Virus record (IMG/VR): IMGVR_UViG_3300029516_000004
Coordinates: 31,480-95,479 of that record
DNA length: 64,000 nucleotides
DNA from: a virus
Lineage: Duplodnaviria > Heunggongvirae > Uroviricota > Caudoviricetes
Strand: one strand, 5' to 3'
Below the pieces are notes generated by a model. That model saw only the letters and a list, made by a program, of their open reading frames with translations. It was not told where the DNA came from and did not search any database. The position numbers were made by a program, and so were the translations under genes. Numbering within the stretch: the stretch's first letter is position 1; every line of letters begins with the position of its first letter. Below, in pieces: positions 5,827 to 48,910 of this stretch.

Positions 5827-6870
5827 TTATCTAACGCTCAACGAGTGACTTGTGATAGCGCCGACTCCAAGCGCGTAATCAAAGAACAATCGTTGATGCA
5901 TCGCCAGCCTACCGTGCGTCTTCTCCCAATTATCGCGGTCACGCTCAATATCACGCTGGCATGACTGGCACAGAGGAATTGCGTAAATGTCATGCGCGCA
6001 TAATCGACTATGACGAACAATATAAGGCGTAATGTGAGCGCCAGCTCCCGCCGCTCCACACCCACAGCATGGACGGGAAGCAACAAAGTCCATGTACTCA
6101 GGTAATTTTAGCGATTGCAGTTTTGGTATTTTGAAATGCGCCATGCCAGGGTCGGAGTCAACATCCACAGGGCATACTTTTGCACGCATCGGCGCGGCGC
6201 GTTCTTCCATCATCTGAACATATGCTGTAGCGCGATCGTCATACGGGCGAATATCCGCCTCTTTCAGAGGTCCGCTATCCTGCGTTGCGGCTTTCATCTT
6301 ATTTATTGATATACGGCAAACTTCTTCCGGCATCAGGTGCATCATGTTGCGCATGAAAGCCCACCAGCACAGTTCCTGAATACTTAAATCATGGCCATCT
6401 GAAAGCCCCATTTCCTGACGGGCGACATCCAGTATCCAGTTAACGCGATTATTATGCAGCGTTTCTTTCAGCTCATTAAAACCACGCATCCGGTAATGGT
6501 TATCGTGATGCCAGCACAGCAACACCGCGCTATTGTCTCGTTCAGCGTGGACAATATGGTTGTCACACCAACTATGATCTGCGGCCTGGCATCGCCCCTC
6601 TTTCCTGCGCAACCACGCCACCAGCGCGTCAATTCCACCAATACGACGAAACAGCTCATCGCTGTTAAAAAACGGCTGCAACGCCTCATTTGTTGCCATG
6701 GTTTGCTCGGAAACAACGAGGCCGTCGTCCATGTGCTCGATTAACTCACGCGGCACCGGCTCCATAATAAATTTACGGCCAGCCTCCACCAGCTTTCTGA
6801 CCTCCTGATCCACTTTGAACGTGGCGAGGCCAAGCTCTTTCTGTACAAAGGGAGTAATTACGGCTTTCAC
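5827..6870 (-). CDS. hypothetical Cys/His-rich protein (347 aa), post-doc region
   Basis: ORF-track ORF; motifs CWHHDNH and [12 protein letters not shown]...CQSCQ suggest a metal-binding, possibly HNH-like, fold. Confidence 0.6.
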
Positions 6871-6897
6871 ATCACACCTTTAATCACTGATTGGGCT

Positions 6898-7098
6898 TTA
6901 TCTGCTGCCCGGCATTCTCTGTTTAAGCACAACCATTTCCTGACGGCATAACACAGCAATAGCGGTCCTGGCACCAATTTGCTTACCAACCAGGTATTGC
7001 TTTACCTTGCGGCGACTCACGCCATCAAGAAGCATCTTTAACGCTTCACGGGACAATTTGTTGTATTTGCGTGCCATTAATCTACTCCGCAGAACCAT
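6898..7098 (-). CDS. hypothetical small basic protein (66 aa)
   Basis: ORF immediately downstream of doc, overlapping its stop. Confidence 0.45.
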
Positions 7099-7462
7099 AC
7101 AATCTACGTAACGTGTCGGCGACAGAAGATACAGATATCTCGCCAGTCGCAGCGCCTACGGTAAGGTCTGCCAGTTCAGGTGAATCAAATACCTGCACCC
7201 CGTTACGGCGTAGAAATAGCAGCGCACTGTTTAGCGCGGTACGCTTATTGGCATCATTGAATATATGCCCTCTCGCTGTAGCCACCAGGTAGGTGGCGGA
7301 GACTTCGAAAAGGTCGGTGATCTCTTCGTAGGCAACTCTGGCCTGAACTCTCCCGATAATGGCCTCTGCCCTACCCGGATCTGACATTCCCGGCAGGCCG
7401 CCGTAGCGGTTTATATTCGCATCATGAAGCGCAATAAGTTCTTCCGGTGATATATGCCTCAT
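7082..7462 (-). CDS. doc: Doc toxin (Fic-fold kinase), 126 aa
   Basis: [43 protein letters not shown]... recognised as P1 Doc; start overlaps phd stop. Confidence 0.95.
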
Positions 7463-7683
7463 TATCGGTTAACCAGTTCCTTGTTGGTGGAGTCCAGGGT
7501 GTCAAACAGGGATGCAAATTCAGCATCCAGCGCCGCTTTTTTGTAGGCTTCGAAAGTAGCCTTGCTGACAATTACTGCTGGCTCACGGCCTCTGCGGGTG
7601 ATTTCAACCTCTTCCCCGGCCTCAACATTGTTGAGCACTTCAGAAAGGTTGCCGCGCGCGGTACGGAAGTTAATGGATTGCAT
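7462..7683 (-). CDS. phd: Phd antitoxin, 73 aa
   Basis: [73 protein letters not shown] recognised as P1 Phd. Confidence 0.95.
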
Positions 7684-7692
7684 AAATACCTC

Positions 7693-7720
7693 GTGTACTC
7701 GTTATGTGTACACAATTATA
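7693..7720 (-). promoter_or_regulatory. phd-doc promoter/operator with GTGTAC palindromes
   Basis: TATAAT (minus strand, 7715-7720) followed by TGTGTACACA and GTGTAC half-sites just upstream of phd RBS. Confidence 0.5.
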
Positions 7721-7859
7721 AACTTCACAGGCATAAAGCACCAGCACTTTGCGGCTTAACAAACCTCTAGGCAGGTCATTCGTAGCCTAATGTCCGAACT
7801 GCTAAAGCATCCAAGTTGCTGTAGAATCACCGCCAATTACATAAGCCTGAAATAAGTGG

Positions 7860-40236: not shown

Positions 40237-40263
40237 AAGTCAACAAGTGACTTTCAATAAAAT
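40237..40263 (+). promoter_or_regulatory. putative late promoter with palindrome AAAGTCA-acaag-TGACTTT and TAAAAT -10
   Basis: GTGACTT-N4-TAAAAT upstream of the head/sheath operon. Confidence 0.5.
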
Positions 40264-44531: not shown

Positions 44532-45113
44532 ATGGCACCTATACCTTATGGGGTTTACAGCCAGGCTGACGGTGTATCGCCATTTCTGAAAGTTACTTTA
44601 ACGAACTCTCAGTACCAGGTTACCGGATATATCAGCCAGGGGGCAGCAATGAACATGGCCCAGAATTGGGAAGCGCCGTTTACCGGTATGTCCATGGGGT
44701 CTGTTGCTGGTGCTTTCAGTGGTTTTGCGCAGGTTGGTACTGAAACAACGTCGGTGGCCCGTTGGAACAGCTTAATGGTTTGGGAGGGGGGAACACCGCC
44801 GACTTTCACGCTGCCAGTAACTTTCATCGCTTTGTTTGACCCATTCACTGAGGTTTCAGGAGCTATCGCCGCATTGTCAGCGATGATTAGCCCGGAACTT
44901 AAAGATGCCAGCATTGGTGGTCGAATCCCGGAGCGTGTGACGCTAAACATTGGTCGCCGGATCAACATCATTGATGTCGCTATCCAGGACATAAGTTTCG
45001 ATCTCGATGCGCCCAGGGACAGCAATGGGCATTTCCTGAAAAACACCGTCAACCTCCAGTTGACCGGTTCTTCGATATATAACAGCTCCGATATTGTTCG
45101 GGCGTTCCAGTAA
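44532..45113 (+). CDS. putative virion structural protein (193 aa)
   Basis: ORF in late operon. Confidence 0.5.
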   Translation: MAPIPYGVYSQADGVSPFLKVTLTNSQYQVTGYISQGAAMNMAQNWEAPFTGMSMGSVAGAFSGFAQVGTETTSVARWNSLMVWEGGTPPTFTLPVTFIALFDPFTEVSGAIAALSAMISPELKDASIGGRIPERVTLNIGRRINIIDVAIQDISFDLDAPRDSNGHFLKNTVNLQLTGSSIYNSSDIVRAFQ

Positions 45114-45124
45114 AAGGATTTTAT

Positions 45125-45634
45125 ATGGGGCACAATAACACTAAGGGAAACCGTAAATTTATTAAGGGCCGCTATACTGCCAACGCGGCCAAAGGCGAAC
45201 GACTGGTATCTTCTGAATTCCAGCTCACTTTTGCAGGCCATGAAGATATCAGCGTACTGGTTCGCACGTCGCAAATTCCTGAAATGACCCGCGAGGATGT
45301 GGAGGACTATGGTCCGAATGGTGTGAAGTTCAACCAGCACGGTCCAATTCGAAACTCTGGGGAAATCCAGGTCCAGTGCGTGGAGACTATCGAAGGCGAT
45401 ATTCTTCAGTTCATTAAAGATCGCATTGCGGCGAAGGACTATGTTGATATCACGATGGCTGCGACCCCTGAATCCAAATCTTCCGGGGTTAACGCTGTGA
45501 CTAAAGCTGCTACAACAATTGAAATGTTGGACTGCAAAATCTACAGTGATGCAATCGACTTTAGTACCGAAGATGTGACTGCTGCTGTGCGCCCGTCACT
45601 TCGTATCGTCTACAACTGGATTGAGTGGGATTAA
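45125..45634 (+). CDS. putative tail tube protein (169 aa)
   Basis: Size and position after sheath gene. Confidence 0.5.
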   Translation: MGHNNTKGNRKFIKGRYTANAAKGERLVSSEFQLTFAGHEDISVLVRTSQIPEMTREDVEDYGPNGVKFNQHGPIRNSGEIQVQCVETIEGDILQFIKDRIAAKDYVDITMAATPESKSSGVNAVTKAATTIEMLDCKIYSDAIDFSTEDVTAAVRPSLRIVYNWIEWD

Positions 45635-45653
45635 GAGTCATCCCTTGTATTTT

Positions 45654-45677
45654 AAAGCTCCTTCGGGAGCTTTTTTT
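45654..45677 (+). terminator. rho-independent terminator ending the head/sheath operon
   Basis: AAAGCTCC-ttcg-GGAGCTTT followed by TTTTT. Confidence 0.7.
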
Positions 45678-45805
45678 ATAACTATTTTATATAAACATGC
45701 ATCGATAACATTGTCTGGAGTTTTATGTTAGATTATTAATGTTCTAATAAACTACAATTATTGAGGTAGATGTTTGTGCCTGTACTGTTAAAGGGGGACT
45801 CTAAA

Positions 45806-46402
45806 ATGGCTGTGATTCCAATGTCGTACTCCCCGGGTACTGTCGCTCGTCGATTTTCGATCCTGGACGGAGTTACCATCCAGGGTGTGCTTTACCAGGT
45901 TATATGGGATTCCAAAACCCCATTTGCAGCTGTAATAGAGGCTGCGCCTTCTATTATCGATGGTGATATGCGCCATAAGGTTGTCGCCACTCTTGAACTT
46001 CAACGTCGCCCACAGCTTGAAGGCGTACTGGTGAGGAAGTTCTGGGAAGATAACGATGTTGCCCAGATTGAAGGTATCGTGGTTGATGGAATCGTCCGGG
46101 ATGTCGGTTTAGCCACTTTTGTTTATGAAACCGTAGCTTCAAAAGCCGGAGTTGTTTTGCTAAGTGACAATGAGCAATACGAAGGCGGAAAGGCTCTTTG
46201 GCAGCACATCGCTCGTCGTTCTTCCGAACTAAAAGTTTTTATCCTGGACACCGATACTGCTCAGTATTACCCATTTGATGGCGAACGTGTTTGCTATGAC
46301 GGGAAAAGTATTCCTGAATCCGAGATATGGAGTGAACATCCGGATCGAAGTAAGCATGGGGTTGTTCTTGTCGCAGAATCCATAACTGGAAAGGCGGCAT
46401 AG
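45806..46402 (+). CDS. hypothetical protein in an isolated transcription unit
   Basis: ATG at 45806 has AAGGGGGAC RBS (ORF track begins 45770); AT-rich upstream region after a terminator. Confidence 0.5.
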   Translation: MAVIPMSYSPGTVARRFSILDGVTIQGVLYQVIWDSKTPFAAVIEAAPSIIDGDMRHKVVATLELQRRPQLEGVLVRKFWEDNDVAQIEGIVVDGIVRDVGLATFVYETVASKAGVVLLSDNEQYEGGKALWQHIARRSSELKVFILDTDTAQYYPFDGERVCYDGKSIPESEIWSEHPDRSKHGVVLVAESITGKAA

Positions 46403-46689
46403 CAGTAAAAAATTCCTTGCTCCTTGACAGAGGAGAGGATTAATCTAAGTACGCTAAGCATAGGTATGGCCCCGGTTAATGTTAAGCGTTGTGCGGGACG
46501 CATAATGTTTACTGGGGCTTTCTTTTACCTATTTTGGGATAATCCTGAATTCCGTAGTATTTTGTATCGGCTGCGGCTGCATCAGCGTTTGACTCTATTT
46601 CTATAGAAATCACCTGGAATGGTGAATACCCACATCAGAAGAAACGTTGCAGCAAACATGATCCCTAATGGCCAGACCGCGCCAAAGAA

Positions 46690-48050
46690 AATCCATAGTG
46701 ACTGCTCCCCGCCCTGTCGGGCGAGGCTTCCCACTTCTTAAGCCGCAACCGTCTGTGTGACGGATTTACGCTGGCCTCCATGGGCAGAAACGACGAGTCC
46801 CGCCGCTTGTAATTCCAGTATTCCCTTGCGTTTGATGTTGAGCGCCGCATTGATATCGCGGTCATGTTCAACTCCACACTCTGGACACTGCCAGAAGCGC
46901 TTATGTAATGGCATCTCCGACATTTTGTGACCGCAGCAGTGGCAGGTTTTCGAACTGGCGAACCATTGATCCAGTTTCACCAGATGCACACCTTTCTCTG
47001 TTGCTTTGTATTCCAGTTTTGTGATGAATCCAGACCATCCAGCATCGCCTATCGCACGAGCCAGATGGTGATTTTTCATCATATTTGCCGTTTTCAATGT
47101 CTCGACAATTATCGCTTGGTTTTCGTCAACAATTGCGCGAGATAACTTGTGCTGGAAATCGGCACGGGCACTGGCTACCCGTTCGTGAACGGCTGCAAGT
47201 TGTATTCTGGCTTTGCGCCTGTTTGCGCTCCCTTTTTTCTTACGGGACAGTGCTTTCTGCTTCCGGCGCAGGTTGCGACTTGCATTGATTAGGTGGCGGG
47301 GACTGGCAATTTTATTGCCGTCCGATTTGATGACAAAATGCGCCAGCCCCATATCCAGCCCTGTCACATTTGATATCAGTGCGGGCTTTGCCGGCGCTTC
47401 CATCCCGTCGTCACAGAGTAACGACGCGTAGTATTTCCCGGTTGCGCTGCGGCTCAACGTGATACTTTTCAGCATTCCCGTAATTTCACGATGTAAACGC
47501 GCTTCAATCGGCAAGATTTTCGGTATTTTTATCGCACCATCAAGGACTTTTATGCCAACACAATGATAGCTAGATTGTCTGCCGTGTTTACTTTTAAAGG
47601 TAGGTTTACCTGCTTTCAGTTTCGGATTGAAAAAGTTAGAAAAAGCCACGTCGAGGTTAATTACCGCCTGCTGCAACGCAATAGAATCATATTCTTTAAG
47701 CCATCCATACCGGCGGGATTTCTTCGCCACTGCAAGCAGTGGTTTGAGGTCTTTACGCGGGTTTAAATTTACGCGGTGCCGCTGGTAAGAATGTTTCTTG
47801 ATATGCAGAGCTTTGTTGTACACAAAACGCACTGCACCGAACTGGGCGTTGATAAATTCAGCCTGTTCTGGTGTCGGATAGATGCGTACTTTTGTTGCTC
47901 TTAACATAGTCACCGCTCATTGGTACAGGTTTTTATGCTAACACCGTAATAATATTTTTAAAGCCCTTCGGGCTTTTCCGCCTTTCCTACCCGCCCGCAT
48001 TGGGCGAGGGTTCTCGGCGGTTTTTCGCTGAAAACGCCTGGTGACTCCAG
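46690..48050 (-). mobile_element. IS200/IS605-family insertion element carrying tnpB only (boundaries approximate)
   Basis: Intact tnpB flanked by sub-terminal hairpins sharing CGCCC-N5/6-GGGCGAGG at both ends (46713-46730 and 47997-48014) plus AAAGCCCTTCGGGCTTT hairpin at 47956-47972. Confidence 0.6.
46738..47913 (-). CDS. tnpB: TnpB (OMEGA RNA-guided nuclease; RuvC-like plus zinc finger), 391 aa
   Basis: RuvC-I GLDMG, RuvC-II IIVETLK, zinc finger CHCCGH...CPECG, RuvC-III HDRDINAALNI. Confidence 0.85.
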   Translation of the reverse strand: MTMLRATKVRIYPTPEQAEFINAQFGAVRFVYNKALHIKKHSYQRHRVNLNPRKDLKPLLAVAKKSRRYGWLKEYDSIALQQAVINLDVAFSNFFNPKLKAGKPTFKSKHGRQSSYHCVGIKVLDGAIKIPKILPIEARLHREITGMLKSITLSRSATGKYYASLLCDDGMEAPAKPALISNVTGLDMGLAHFVIKSDGNKIASPRHLINASRNLRRKQKALSRKKKGSANRRKARIQLAAVHERVASARADFQHKLSRAIVDENQAIIVETLKTANMMKNHHLARAIGDAGWSGFITKLEYKATEKGVHLVKLDQWFASSKTCHCCGHKMSEMPLHKRFWQCPECGVEHDRDINAALNIKRKGILELQAAGLVVSAHGGQRKSVTQTVAA

Positions 48051-48064
48051 ATTAGAGCAATCTA

Positions 48065-48910
48065 TCACCCTCTGAATCCTGCCGGTATACCCCATTGTTC
48101 GTTATCTTTATTTTTGGCTAAAACCGCATTAAGAGCTTCGTTTACCGTCATGCAATGCGGCAGATTATCGAAGTTTGATACCCCGCCAATATCAGGAGAA
48201 CGCTTGTTCTTCAGGTAAGCATATTTCCGCGCTGCCGCCTCTACTTTCTGCTTGAACTCATGTTTTTGAGCGCGTTTTTTGGATAACCGCAGATTGTCAG
48301 CCTTTGCTTTTGCCTCAGCGATCCATGAAGTCAATTTTTTGAGTCTGCTCGTTCCGGCACCGCCGGAAACTGATCTTTTTGTTTTTTTAACTTGTGACTT
48401 CTTATTCTTTATTGCCACGTCATCCTGACAGGGGGAAGGGGTATCATTTTGACATGGGGGTGTGGATAAAAAATTAAATAAAGCCAATGTTTTAGCGAGA
48501 ACAGCTTTAACCTTGGTTGCCGCTGAAGAGATCTTTAATTTGCTTTCAATCAGCGCATTTTTGGCTTGTTGTGCGAAGGCCAAAAAGGATGGCGTAAACC
48601 GGTACAGGTTAGCGCGACGTTCACGGTGATCGCCGATAACAATCTCTACAGACAGAATTCCTTTGTTTACAGCTTCACGGAATGCACGAACGACGGTTGA
48701 TTGGCTATAACCAGTTTCTGCCGCGATCAGGCGGTGAGGCTTGTGAATGAAGTATTCACTGGTTGTTGCCGCGAGATTTGCACATTGCGACAGGATATGC
48801 CCGGCGCTACGAGATAAACCGGAGTGTGTTACAAAGCAGGCCAATTCATAGCCAGAAAAAGTAAAATCGCTCATCGTTATACAGCTCAGGAAAGTGACTT
48901 TAGCCAGCAT
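48065..48910 (-). CDS. repL: RepL lytic replication initiator (281 aa)
   Basis: 281-aa ORF downstream of kilA in the c4-icd-ant-kilA-repL arrangement. Confidence 0.8.
   Translation of the reverse strand: MLAKVTFLSCITMSDFTFSGYELACFVTHSGLSRSAGHILSQCANLAATTSEYFIHKPHRLIAAETGYSQSTVVRAFREAVNKGILSVEIVIGDHRERRANLYRFTPSFLAFAQQAKNALIESKLKISSAATKVKAVLAKTLALFNFLSTPPCQNDTPSPCQDDVAIKNKKSQVKKTKRSVSGGAGTSRLKKLTSWIAEAKAKADNLRLSKKRAQKHEFKQKVEAAARKYAYLKNKRSPDIGGVSNFDNLPHCMTVNEALNAVLAKNKDNEQWGIPAGFRG

What the first reader, a model, noticed from the sequence alone, without database searches (positions are those of the whole stretch)
45640..46402. Orphan transcription unit between the head/sheath operon terminator and the TnpB element
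After a strong terminator (45654-45677) an AT-rich region with a degenerate operator-like sequence (about 13/17) precedes a roughly 198-aa ORF with a strong AAGGGGG RBS and no recognisable motifs. Its isolation from flanking operons and adjacency to a mobile element are typical of accessory (moron) genes.
Basis: seen in the sequence. Interest (0 to 1): 0.35.

Follow-up and report, generated by a model that had tools for sequence, protein, structure and literature searches.

The report
Divergent GNAT-like cargo gene replacing P1 pmgF
The "orphan" gene is real and is dispensable cargo, but it is not featureless: it is the full-length form of phage P1's short pmgF gene and is predicted to be a very divergent acetyltransferase-type (GNAT-fold) enzyme whose substrate is unknown.

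Summary
In this P1-like phage-plasmid (closest relatives SJ46 and RCS47), a strong terminator ends the 23-22-21-pmgG-bplB operon, and a 31% G+C spacer and a conserved ORF follow. Three details change.

1. Conservation of an "MPVL" N-terminal extension puts the likely start at GTG 45776 (208 aa). The "AAGGGGG RBS" is then probably Lys-Gly-Asp codons.
2. The 13/17 operator-like site occurs at the chance rate.
3. The protein has recognisable features. Residues 4-66 are homologous to P1 PmgF (43% identity). The whole protein models confidently (pLDDT 91) as a divergent GNAT fold with a conserved R-x-x-G-x-A CoA-loop motif.

It belongs to a broad unnamed family: 363 clusters, no Pfam model, dN/dS 0.03-0.08. 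Members occur in phages, in a thrW island of E. coli and at fixed chromosomal sites in other Enterobacterales, with no conserved partner gene.

In complete E. coli genomes the long allele (127 genomes) and short pmgF (121 genomes) are about equally common. The slot is the published variable region 5 of P1-like elements, and P1's pmgF is non-essential.

Verdict: a monocistronic accessory gene, most likely an acyl-CoA-dependent acyltransferase of unknown substrate. It is a new member of a known kind, of modest interest.

The parts
45125..45634 (+). bplB (tail tube/baseplate protein), last gene of the essential 23-22-21-pmgG-bplB late operon. Context only, not part of the unit.
   Evidence: phrog_1120 tail tube, E 8.6e-83; 99-100% identical to P1, SJ46 and RCS47 bplB; essential in P1 (PMC10695390).
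45654..45677 (+). Intrinsic terminator of the bplB operon (stem 45654-45673, TTCG loop, T-run to 45677). It is also the left recombination boundary: identity to P1 and P7 ends at 45676.
   Evidence: Terminator scan; megablast to P1 and P7 covers only query bases 1-77; alignment; blastn breakpoints.
45738..45754 (+). Degenerate C1-operator-like sequence AATGTTCTAATAAACTA (13/17). Judged not distinguishable from chance.
   Evidence: 2 four-mismatch sites in the window against 0-6 in shuffles, and 4.5% of shuffles of the spacer give such a site; the 14 good sites have 3 or fewer mismatches and lie elsewhere. The 5' two-thirds is absent upstream of the chromosomal homologs.
45753..45758 (+). Candidate -10 hexamer TACAAT (TATAAT in the E. 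coli and E. albertii chromosomal copies). It is the only upstream element that travels with the cassette. Inferred, not demonstrated.
   Evidence: Alignment of upstream regions across contexts. The consensus promoter scan found no full sigma-70 promoter in the spacer. No P1 late-promoter -22 box (AAGTGACTT) lies nearby.
45776..46402 (+). The gene: a long pmgF allele encoding a divergent GNAT-fold protein. Probable start GTG 45776 (208 aa; SD GAGG at 45763-45766). Alternative inner start ATG 45806 (198 aa; AAGGGGG at 45791-45797). Stop TAG 46400-46402. Numbering from the inner ATG: residues 4-66 are PmgF-like; motif A is R98-D-V-G101-L-A103; family-invariant residues are Q87, Y107, S120, D121, Q124, W132, Y164 and W175.
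   Evidence: ORF list; phrog_7522 E 1.5e-138; PmgF homology E 4e-16; start-codon analysis; model pLDDT 91, pTM 0.87; GNAT-only top Foldseek hits; profile match to 4fd5 motif A; residue conservation; dN/dS 0.03-0.08.
46468..46527 (+). Long imperfect hairpin (46468-46519) followed by UUUCUUUU. Probable intrinsic terminator of the gene, unidirectional for the + strand.
   Evidence: RNA fold -48.9 kcal/mol, z = -3.9, 0 of 200 shuffles as stable. The region is part of the cassette shared with SJ46 and with insertion-free relatives.
46582..46697 (-). 3' remnant of an 83-aa predicted membrane-protein gene that is intact in SJ46 (J46_0017). Its 5' part is replaced here by the TnpB element.
   Evidence: Translations compared; breakpoints at 46693-46697; SJ46 annotation.
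46698..48027 (-). TnpB-only IS200/IS605-family element (ISEc46-like; tnpB CDS 46738-47913). A late insertion between the cassette and repL, not part of the unit.
   Evidence: Pfam HTH_OrfB_IS605, OrfB_IS605 and Cas12f1-like_TNB; 99% identical to the RCS47 'Transposase ISEc46, IS605 family'; absent at this site from 29 of 31 P1-like loci carrying the gene; boundaries set against L035.

Best explanation
The ORF (probably 45776-46402, 208 aa) is a stand-alone, monocistronic accessory gene in the known hypervariable slot between the tail operon and the lytic replicon of P1-like phage-plasmids. It is the full-length counterpart of P1's short, dispensable pmgF.

Its product is a strongly diverged member of the GNAT (acyl-CoA N-acyltransferase) fold. 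The C-terminal half (beta4-alpha3-beta5-alpha4-beta6-beta7) keeps the pyrophosphate-binding loop R98-x-x-G101-x-A103, and so most likely binds acetyl- or another acyl-CoA. The divergent N-terminal beta-rich half (the PmgF-like part), together with a long conserved beta6-beta7 insertion (Y164, D165, G166, W175), would form the acceptor site. The family-invariant S120-D121 and Y107 are candidate catalytic residues.

The enzyme would acylate an amine on a small molecule or protein. It acts alone, with no partner gene, as cargo that benefits the lysogen or the phage rather than building virions.

Shown: gene reality, selection, fold class, motif, distribution, dispensability of the slot, and terminators on both sides. 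Inferred: CoA binding, catalysis, the promoter, the timing of expression and the substrate.
For: Gene is real and selected:
- dN/dS is 0.06-0.08 among P1-like copies and 0.03 against chromosomal copies.
- There are 363 representative clusters at E <= 1e-3, mostly 200-220 aa.

Fold:
- The AlphaFold model with a 114-sequence alignment has pLDDT 91 and pTM 0.87.
- Nearly all of the top 50 PDB Foldseek hits are GNATs (Naa60, RimI, HAT1, NatA, KacT), with probability up to 1.0.
- BFVD hits at E 1.8e-10 to 4e-4 include 'NAT_SF domain' phage proteins.

Sequence:
- The family profile hits arylalkylamine N-acetyltransferase 4fd5 exactly on motif A (E 0.015).
- 7 of 114 relatives touch Pfam Acetyltransf_1.
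- In the family, position 101 is Gly in 93/114, position 103 is Ala or Gly in 97/114, and position 98 is Arg, Lys or Gln in 79/114.
- One source names the 87%-identical cluster 'N-acetyltransferase'.

Accessory status:
- P1 and P7 homology ends at the terminator.
- The long allele is in 127 and short pmgF in 121 of 5,426 complete E. coli genomes.
- The slot is variable region 5 (PMC9603915), and P1 pmgF is non-essential (PMC10695390).
- Relatives sit 310 bp from thrW at the edge of an AlpA/DUF3987/integrase island, beside rsmI-lpoA in Buttiauxella and Cedecea, and in other phages after a DNA ligase or next to a DarB-like gene.
- There is no conserved neighbour.

Monocistronic: terminators lie on both sides.
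Against: - Structural similarity to solved GNATs is weak in absolute terms (TM 0.3-0.42, E 4e-3 at best).
- The protein itself hits no Pfam or NCBIfam model.
- Position 98 is Glu in 17 of 114 relatives, and the invariant residues (Q87, S120-D121, Q124, W132) are not the canonical GNAT catalytic set. A non-catalytic or non-CoA use of the fold is therefore possible.
- No promoter reaches consensus in the spacer, so expression could depend on read-through of the bplB terminator during late transcription.
- Nothing here identifies a substrate.
Confidence: 0.62

Rival explanations
1. Counter-defence or host-takeover enzyme. The GNAT-like protein acetylates, or otherwise inactivates, a host immunity or housekeeping protein. 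It is made early after infection or induction, as other phage GNAT-fold proteins are.
For: - Family members occur in many unrelated phages, including the jumbo Ralstonia phage RsoM2USA and large phage contigs where the gene follows an NAD-dependent DNA ligase or occurs as two paralogs.
- In L066 the gene lies between a 'released upon infection' protein and a DarB-like fragment.
- In P1 the slot holds rlfA/rlfB, which match the candidate defence system PDC-M04. The slot is therefore a conflict-gene hotspot.
- Precedents for phage GNAT-fold effectors exist: Rac of phiKMV (PMC7552054) and Mom of Mu (PMC13219725), both listed.
Against: - The same gene is fixed at a housekeeping locus (rsmI-lpoA) across Buttiauxella, Cedecea, Enterobacter and Dryocola, and sits next to unrelated chromosomal genes elsewhere. 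That is not expected for a phage counter-defence factor.
- There is no similarity to Mom.
- There is no experimental link to any defence system.
Confidence: 0.2
2. Morphogenetic (virion assembly) function, as the historical name PmgF ('putative morphogenetic function') and the position just after the tail genes suggest. An example would be N-terminal acetylation of a structural protein.
For: - The gene lies directly downstream of the essential late operon, on the same strand.
- Read-through of the terminator would give late expression.
- The best PDB matches include N-terminal acetyltransferases (Naa60, RimI, NatA).
Against: - P1 pmgF is non-essential by CRISPRi and by earlier work (PMC10695390).
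- About half of E. coli P1-like elements carry only the truncated 98-aa form, which lacks motif A.
- The slot is deleted or substituted in other P1-like plasmids (PMC6906374).
- Homologs exist in non-phage chromosomal contexts.
- There is no late-promoter box upstream.
Confidence: 0.05
3. Pseudo-enzyme: the GNAT-like fold is used only as a binding scaffold (an inhibitor or adaptor) without acyl transfer.
For: - TM-scores to real GNATs are low.
- The canonical first motif-A residue is variable (Glu in 17 of 114).
- The most invariant residues are family-specific Trp, Tyr and Gln, which could line a ligand or protein interface.
Against: - Gly101 and Ala/Gly103 of the pyrophosphate loop are conserved in 82-85% of a family whose members are only about 20-50% identical to this ORF. 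That conservation is hard to explain without CoA binding.
- The invariant Ser-Asp pair sits right after beta5, where GNAT catalytic residues usually lie (position from the model; the usual catalytic location is from general knowledge of GNATs).
Confidence: 0.1
4. GNAT-type toxin of a toxin-antitoxin module (TacT/AtaT/KacT-like aminoacyl-tRNA acetyltransferase) that stabilises the plasmid prophage.
For: - KacT appears among the weak structural matches (5xun_B, E 0.064).
- P1-like plasmids do rely on addiction modules (phd-doc).
Against: - There is no small adjacent antitoxin ORF. The unit is monocistronic between two terminators.
- No neighbour is conserved across contexts.
- The gene occurs alone at chromosomal sites.
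Confidence: 0.03

Closest known systems
PmgF of bacteriophage P1 (P1_gp053, 98 aa; Upf52.1 of P7)
   Same: - Same genomic slot, immediately after the bplB terminator and on the same strand.
- Residues 3-67 are 43% identical to residues 4-66 of this ORF (E 4e-16).
- Both belong to the published variable region 5.
   Different: - PmgF is half the size. It lacks beta4, motif A and the whole CoA-binding half.
- Its tail shows only a non-significant vestige ('ILSDNKE' against 'LLSDNEQ', 6.6% of shuffles score as well).
- Other short relatives have unrelated tails typical of frameshifts or truncations.
- PGAP calls no gene over pmgF in the listed RefSeq plasmids.
- PmgF therefore looks like a decayed allele of a different lineage of the same family, not the functional equivalent.
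GNAT superfamily N-acetyltransferases (e.g. human Naa60 5icv, E. coli RimI 5isv, HAT1 2p0w, arylalkylamine NAT 4fd5)
   Same: - The predicted topology of the C-terminal core is beta4-alpha3-beta5-alpha4-beta6-beta7.
- An R/Q-x-x-G-x-A/G loop precedes alpha3.
- The top structural neighbours are essentially all GNATs.
   Different: - TM is only 0.3-0.42 and sequence identity about 10-15%.
- No Pfam Acetyltransf hit reaches threshold.
- The N-terminal half is beta-rich with a single short helix.
- There is a roughly 37-residue conserved insertion between beta6 and beta7.
- The invariant residues are different (Q87, Y107, S120-D121, Q124, W132, Y164, W175).
Characterised phage GNAT-fold effectors: Rac of phiKMV-like phages (PMC7552054), Mom of Mu (PMC13219725), and AcrVA5 (from my own knowledge, not checked here)
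   Same: Small, stand-alone GNAT-fold proteins carried by phages as non-structural accessory functions acting on host or DNA targets.
   Different: - There is no detectable sequence or profile similarity to Mom (hhalign probability 0.06).
- Rac and AcrVA5 were not compared directly.
- This family is also fixed in bacterial chromosomes at housekeeping loci.
Phage 'morons' / lysogenic-conversion cassettes (e.g. the Ail/Lom-type gene that fills the same slot in SJ46)
   Same: - A single gene between conserved operons, flanked by terminators.
- Lower G+C in the upstream spacer.
- Variable presence among close relatives.
- The neighbouring SJ46 cargo is an Ail/Lom beta-barrel.
   Different: - An autonomous promoter is not demonstrated.
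- Expression in the lysogen is untested.

Membership tests
GNAT (acyl-CoA N-acyltransferase) superfamily | Mixed alpha/beta fold with the beta4-alpha3-beta5-alpha4 core recognisable by structure comparison | tested here: met
   The model has pLDDT 91 and pTM 0.87. Nearly all of the top 50 Foldseek PDB hits are GNATs, with probability up to 1.0. BFVD 'NAT_SF' phage proteins hit at about E 1e-6. Caveat: TM is 0.3-0.42 and the best E is 4e-3, so this is fold recognition, not close similarity.
GNAT (acyl-CoA N-acyltransferase) superfamily | Motif A: Q/R-x-x-G-x-G/A pyrophosphate-binding loop between beta4 and alpha3 | tested here: met
   The ORF has R98-D-V-G101-L-A103. In the family, Gly is found in 93/114, Ala or Gly in 97/114, and Arg, Lys or Gln in 79/114. 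The profile aligns this stretch to motif A of 4fd5.
GNAT (acyl-CoA N-acyltransferase) superfamily | Significant match to a curated GNAT sequence model (Pfam Acetyltransf_1 and related, or NCBIfam) | tested here: not met
   The ORF has no Pfam or NCBIfam hit at E <= 0.1. Only 7 of 114 relatives give weak Acetyltransf_1 hits, best E 6e-4.
GNAT (acyl-CoA N-acyltransferase) superfamily | Binds acyl-CoA and transfers the acyl group to an amine | not testable with these tools
   This needs biochemistry.
PmgF (P1 gp053) family | Sequence homology and the same genomic position downstream of bplB | tested here: met
   43% identity over 65 aa, E 4e-16. phrog_7349 matches the N-terminus. Same slot.
PmgF (P1 gp053) family | Same length and architecture (about 98 aa, single small domain) | tested here: not met
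   This ORF is 198 or 208 aa against 98 aa. The C-terminal 130 residues have no counterpart in PmgF or in the DNA downstream of it.
Moron / lysogenic-conversion cassette | Variable presence between conserved operons in close relatives, and dispensable | tested here: met
   Literature: PMC9603915, PMC6906374, PMC10695390.
Moron / lysogenic-conversion cassette | Own promoter and terminator, expressed from the prophage | tested here: inconclusive
   Terminators lie on both sides. Only a -10-like TACAAT travels with the cassette. No consensus sigma-70 promoter is present. P1 annotators predicted promoters P1pmgF and P2pmgF inside the conserved bplB 3' end. Expression is untested.
C1-repressor-controlled P1 operon | A 17-bp operator close to ATTGCTCTAATAAATTT overlapping the promoter | tested here: not met
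   The best site has 4 mismatches, including the otherwise invariant C5, and is found at chance frequency.
P1 late (Lpa-dependent) transcription unit | A -22 box like that of LP23 (AAGTGACTT) upstream of a -10 | tested here: not met
   There is no match with 1 mismatch or fewer between 44599 and 48327. The exact boxes are at 40245 (before gene 23) and 48892. The motif was read from the P1 annotation and sequence.
GNAT toxin-antitoxin (TacT/AtaT/KacT type) | An adjacent, co-transcribed small antitoxin gene | tested here: not met
   The unit is monocistronic, and no neighbour is conserved across contexts.
Mom-like DNA-modifying GNAT (phage Mu) | Sequence or profile similarity to Mom | tested here: not met
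   hhalign probability 0.06 and BLASTP E 0.05 on short, unrelated segments.
Known or candidate anti-phage defence systems (PADLOC) | A match to a PADLOC model | tested here: not met
   The ORF has no hit. Only scattered weak hits (E >= 5e-4) appear, in 1-2 of 114 relatives each.

The most novel reading that the evidence does not exclude
The ORF represents an uncharacterised, widely spread clade of GNAT-fold enzymes with its own catalytic signature (Q87, Y107, S120-D121, Q124, W132, Y164, W175). The clade is carried as single-gene cargo by many phages, by a tRNA-linked island of E. coli and by phage-plasmids. In this reading it acts in phage-host or inter-bacterial conflict, for example by acylating a defence protein, a signalling molecule or an antimicrobial. 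P1's textbook gene pmgF would then be a dead remnant of this enzyme rather than a morphogenetic gene.
Probability: 0.25. Interest if true: 0.6.

Novelty: new member of a known kind. Interest (0 to 1): 0.3.

Why it matters
It re-labels a long-standing P1 gene. 'pmgF, putative morphogenetic function' appears to be the truncated allele of a full-length GNAT-like gene that about half of the P1-like phage-plasmids in complete E. coli genomes carry. That removes it from the list of morphogenesis candidates.

It also marks a sizeable family (363 clusters at 50% identity) that has no Pfam model and has a clear, testable biochemical hypothesis. P1-like phage-plasmids are clinically relevant vehicles of resistance genes, and this slot is one of their eight cargo hotspots. 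Knowing that its common occupants are a putative acyltransferase, a candidate defence pair (rlfA/rlfB) or an Ail/Lom protein helps in interpreting their accessory gene content.

The finding does not by itself reveal a new mechanism.

Tried and rejected
- Single-sequence searches of the ORF against Pfam, NCBIfam and PDB sequences gave nothing usable.
- The second homologous-protein run, with a profile, listed only close relatives and added nothing.
- The search for related loci with the 114-sequence alignment failed because no conserved stretch was found. It worked with a 14-sequence alignment.
- C1 operator control was rejected as unsupported.
- Late-promoter control: no -22 box was found.
- Two-gene module hypothesis: the large convergent neighbours in the E. 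coli island (568 aa) and in Buttiauxella (632 aa) are unrelated and have no Pfam, PHROG or PADLOC hits.
- Mom-like DNA modification was rejected.
- 'PmgF arose by internal deletion of motif A': the vestigial 'ILSDNKE' match is not significant (6.6% of shuffles score as well), and no C-terminal remnant lies in the P1 DNA downstream. I keep only the weaker statement that PmgF is an N-terminal-only, probably decayed allele.
- The Rfam scan of 45400-48200 gave only sub-threshold chance hits (STnc130, SAM-III, HgcC).
- The first literature search for 'pmgF' was swamped by unrelated uses of the term, and one search call failed on a term that was too short.
- One PADLOC call failed on bad coordinates.
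Full report
**Where we are.** The window is a P1-like phage-plasmid. The 851-bp region around the finding is 98.9% identical to Salmonella phage SJ46 and 95.8% to Escherichia phage RCS47. P1, P7 and their closest relatives match only the first 77 bases, which are the end of bplB plus its terminator. The upstream genes are the essential late operon 23-22(sheath)-21-pmgG-bplB. Downstream, on the other strand, lie a TnpB gene, repL and kilA.

**Checking the observation.**
- The terminator is real: AAAGCTCC-TTCG-GGAGCTTT at 45654-45673, followed by a T-run to 45677.
- The spacer to the ORF is 30.7% G+C.
- The ORF from ATG 45806 to the stop at 46402 is 198 aa, and AAGGGGG sits 8 nt upstream of that ATG.
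- The operator-like sequence is at 45738-45754 and matches the P1 C1 operator consensus at 13 of 17 positions. Sites of that quality occur at chance frequency: 2 in the window against 0-6 in dinucleotide shuffles, and 4.5% of shuffles of the spacer alone contain one.
- The window holds 14 much better operator sites with 3 or fewer mismatches, against 0.36 expected by chance, and none is here. The candidate also changes the C at position 5 that all 14 keep.
- Upstream of the chromosomal homologs, only the 3' third of the site is conserved. That third overlaps a -10-like hexamer, TACAAT here and TATAAT there.
- I conclude that the operator is unsupported.

**Start codon.** Homologs down to 30-50% identity carry an N-terminal extension, MPVLxxGDSxM. 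At the DNA level most of them start with ATG, and their Pro-Val-Leu codons differ at synonymous positions. That is the signature of selection on protein, not on a ribosome-binding site. In the window the corresponding start is GTG 45776, with GAGG 9 nt upstream, giving 208 aa. The AAGGGGG would then encode Lys-Gly-Asp. Two homologs (L007, with a stop codon in the extension, and L011) can only use the inner ATG, so an internal start remains possible.

**The unit is closed on both sides.** A long hairpin (46468-46519) followed by UUUCUUUU lies 65-125 nt after the stop codon (-48.9 kcal/mol, z = -3.9). No P1 late-promoter -22 box (AAGTGACTT, read from LP23 in the P1 record) lies near the ORF. The simple sigma-70 scan finds no consensus promoter in the spacer. 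The P1 annotators predicted two promoters for pmgF inside the conserved 3' end of bplB. How the gene is transcribed is therefore open.

**What the gene is.** It is not an orphan.
- Residues 4-66 are 43% identical to residues 3-67 of P1 PmgF (E 4e-16), the gene that occupies the same position in P1.
- The whole protein matches PHROG 7522, of unknown function (E 1.5e-138). It has 159 close relatives in the 90%-clustered database and 363 representative clusters at 50% identity, most of them 200-220 aa.
- Neither the ORF nor all but a few of 114 relatives hit any Pfam family.
- With the 114-sequence alignment AlphaFold gives a confident model (pLDDT 91, pTM 0.87).
- Its PDB neighbours are essentially all GNAT acetyltransferases (Naa60, RimI, HAT1, NatA, AAC, KacT). 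Foldseek probabilities reach 1.0, but TM-scores are only 0.3-0.42.
- Viral predicted structures labelled 'NAT_SF domain' match at E 1e-6, and one unnamed viral protein at 1.8e-10.
- Independently of structure, the family profile aligns its 'frgkGlA' stretch to motif A of arylalkylamine N-acetyltransferase 4fd5 (E 0.015).
- In the ORF this motif is R98-D-V-G101-L-A103, placed exactly between the predicted beta4 and alpha3. In the family, Gly101 is kept in 82% of members and Ala/Gly103 in 85%.
- The family also has its own near-invariant residues: Q87, Y107, S120, D121, Q124, W132, Y164 and W175.
- dN/dS is 0.06-0.08 among P1-like copies and 0.03 against the chromosomal copies.
- I therefore regard it as a functional, strongly diverged GNAT-fold protein that most probably still binds an acyl-CoA. 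Catalysis and substrate are inferred, not shown.

**Relation to PmgF.**
- P1's PmgF (98 aa) covers only the N-terminal, acceptor-side part of the fold. It lacks beta4, motif A and everything after.
- Its tail has at most a non-significant echo of the 'LLSDNEQ' motif (6.6% of shuffles score as well), and no remnant of the C-terminal half is detectable in the P1 DNA downstream.
- Other short relatives in the databases each have a different, unconserved tail or an internal deletion. These look like frameshifted or truncated copies.
- RefSeq's pipeline annotates no gene over pmgF in the listed E. coli plasmids.
- Because the two alleles are only 43% identical while the flanking bplB is 99-100% identical, they are old alternative cassettes exchanged by recombination at the terminator. 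One is not a recent truncation of the other.

**Distribution and context.**
- In 5,426 complete E. coli genomes the long allele is in 127 genomes (126 of 129 copies on plasmids) and short pmgF is in 121.
- All 31 fetched P1-like loci with the long allele keep bplB-ORF-...-repL and lack rlfA/rlfB.
- Between the ORF and repL these loci have one of four fillings: nothing (485 bp, 13 loci); a ~2-kb insert with a ParA-like ATPase and a DUF3892 protein (9 loci); an 83-aa membrane protein plus an Ail/Lom beta-barrel (7 loci, SJ46 type); or a TnpB element (RCS47 and this window).
- In this window the TnpB element (about 46698-48027) has removed the 5' part of the 83-aa gene.
- Outside P1-like elements, the 87-89% identical copies lie 310 bp from tRNA-Thr (thrW), next to proBA. 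They are the first gene of an island with AlpA, a DUF3987 protein and an integrase.
- The 45-50% identical copies are fixed beside rsmI-lpoA-yraN-diaA in Buttiauxella, Cedecea, Enterobacter and Dryocola.
- Pantoea copies follow an ECF sigma/anti-sigma pair. One copy abuts a peptide-exporter and glycosyltransferase cluster.
- More distant relatives are in other phages: after a DNA ligase, next to a DarB-like fragment and the portal gene, or duplicated.
- No neighbour is shared between contexts, and the two large convergent neighbours are unrelated. The gene works alone.

**Literature.**
- The same genes are deleted or substituted in pSvP1 and pTZ20_1P (PMC6906374).
- In the genome-wide CRISPRi map of P1, pmgF, rlfA and rlfB are non-essential, whereas bplB, pmgG, 21, 22 and 23 are essential (PMC10695390).
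- No paper was found that characterises the long allele or PmgF biochemically.

**Mechanism and rivals.**
- Best explanation (confidence 0.62): a stand-alone acyl-CoA-dependent acyltransferase of unknown substrate, carried as dispensable cargo in a recombination hotspot.
- A counter-defence or host-takeover role is plausible, given the many phage contexts and the nature of the slot. The fixed chromosomal copies argue against it as the general function (0.2).
- A pseudo-enzyme is possible (0.1).
- A morphogenetic role (0.05) and a toxin-antitoxin role (0.03) are disfavoured.
- Mom-like DNA modification was tested and rejected, and no PADLOC defence model matches.

**Verdict.** The interpretation as an accessory gene is right, but 'orphan, no motifs, operator-controlled, RBS AAGGGGG' needs correcting. 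The thing is a new, divergent member of a known superfamily sitting in an already described variable region. The one mildly new point is that P1's pmgF looks like the decayed allele of this enzyme. Interest is modest (0.3).

Noticed in passing
L002 (P1 NC_005856) 6581-7749, minus strand: rlfB and rlfA. These occupy the slot homologous to window 45677-48050.: P1 rlfA and rlfB are annotated 'possibly associated with lytic replication'. They match the two-gene PADLOC candidate defence system PDC-M04 (PDC-M04A E 1e-95; PDC-M04B E 1e-51). rlfA is a DUF3800 protein. Both are non-essential in the CRISPRi map. They may be a prophage-encoded defence pair rather than replication factors.
   Followed up: partly
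L001 (SJ46 KU760857) 7294-7809, minus strand (J46_0018): The gene annotated 'replication protein RepL' is an Ail/Lom-type outer-membrane beta-barrel (Pfam OMP_b-brl E 2e-24, Ail_Lom E 1e-22). This is a mis-annotation, and the gene is a classic lysogenic-conversion cargo in the same slot.
   Followed up: yes
window 46582-48027: A TnpB-only IS200/IS605-family element (ISEc46-like; tnpB 46738-47913, minus strand) is inserted at about 46698-48027. It removed the 5' part of an 83-aa membrane-protein gene that is intact in SJ46, leaving the remnant 46582-46697 on the minus strand. Element ends, target site and any guide (omega) RNA were not analysed.
   Followed up: partly
RefSeq E. coli P1-like plasmids, hits H59-H68 (e.g. 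NZ_CP020522.1 28938-29234): PGAP annotates no feature over the short pmgF sequence in any of the 10 listed records. This is consistent with pmgF being a decayed gene.
   Followed up: no
L037 6802-8299 (IMG/VR UViG_2630968766_000004), and 8 similar loci: This is an alternative ~2-kb filling of the slot between the long pmgF allele and repL: a ParA/MinD-like ATPase (351 aa, AAA_31) and a DUF3892 protein (123 aa). Neither has a PADLOC match.
   Followed up: partly
L076 8684-10321 and L004 6690-8396 (minus strand); L012 6662-8560 (minus strand): Large proteins of 545-568 aa and 632 aa lie convergent with the GNAT-like gene in the thrW island and in Buttiauxella. They have no Pfam, PHROG or PADLOC hit and are unrelated to each other.
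   Followed up: partly
L071 1680-2285 and 5818-6456; L075: Phage contigs of about 45-95 kb carry two diverged paralogs of the family within about 4 kb of each other.
   Followed up: no
window 44590-44598 and 48892-48900: There are late-promoter-like -22 boxes at two further sites: the palindromic AAGTTACTT just inside pmgG, and an exact AAGTGACTT inside repL near its 5' end, on the opposite strand. The expected exact box at 40245 precedes gene 23. Their function is not examined.
   Followed up: no
L066 2764-9865 (IMG/VR UViG_3300025735_000294, 89.9 kb): In a different large phage or phage-plasmid, the 72%-identical homolog lies between a phrog_1926 protein ('released from the phage upon host infection') and a DarB-like N-terminal fragment, followed by the portal gene. 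A RepL-like gene (35% identity) lies 5 kb further on.
   Followed up: partly
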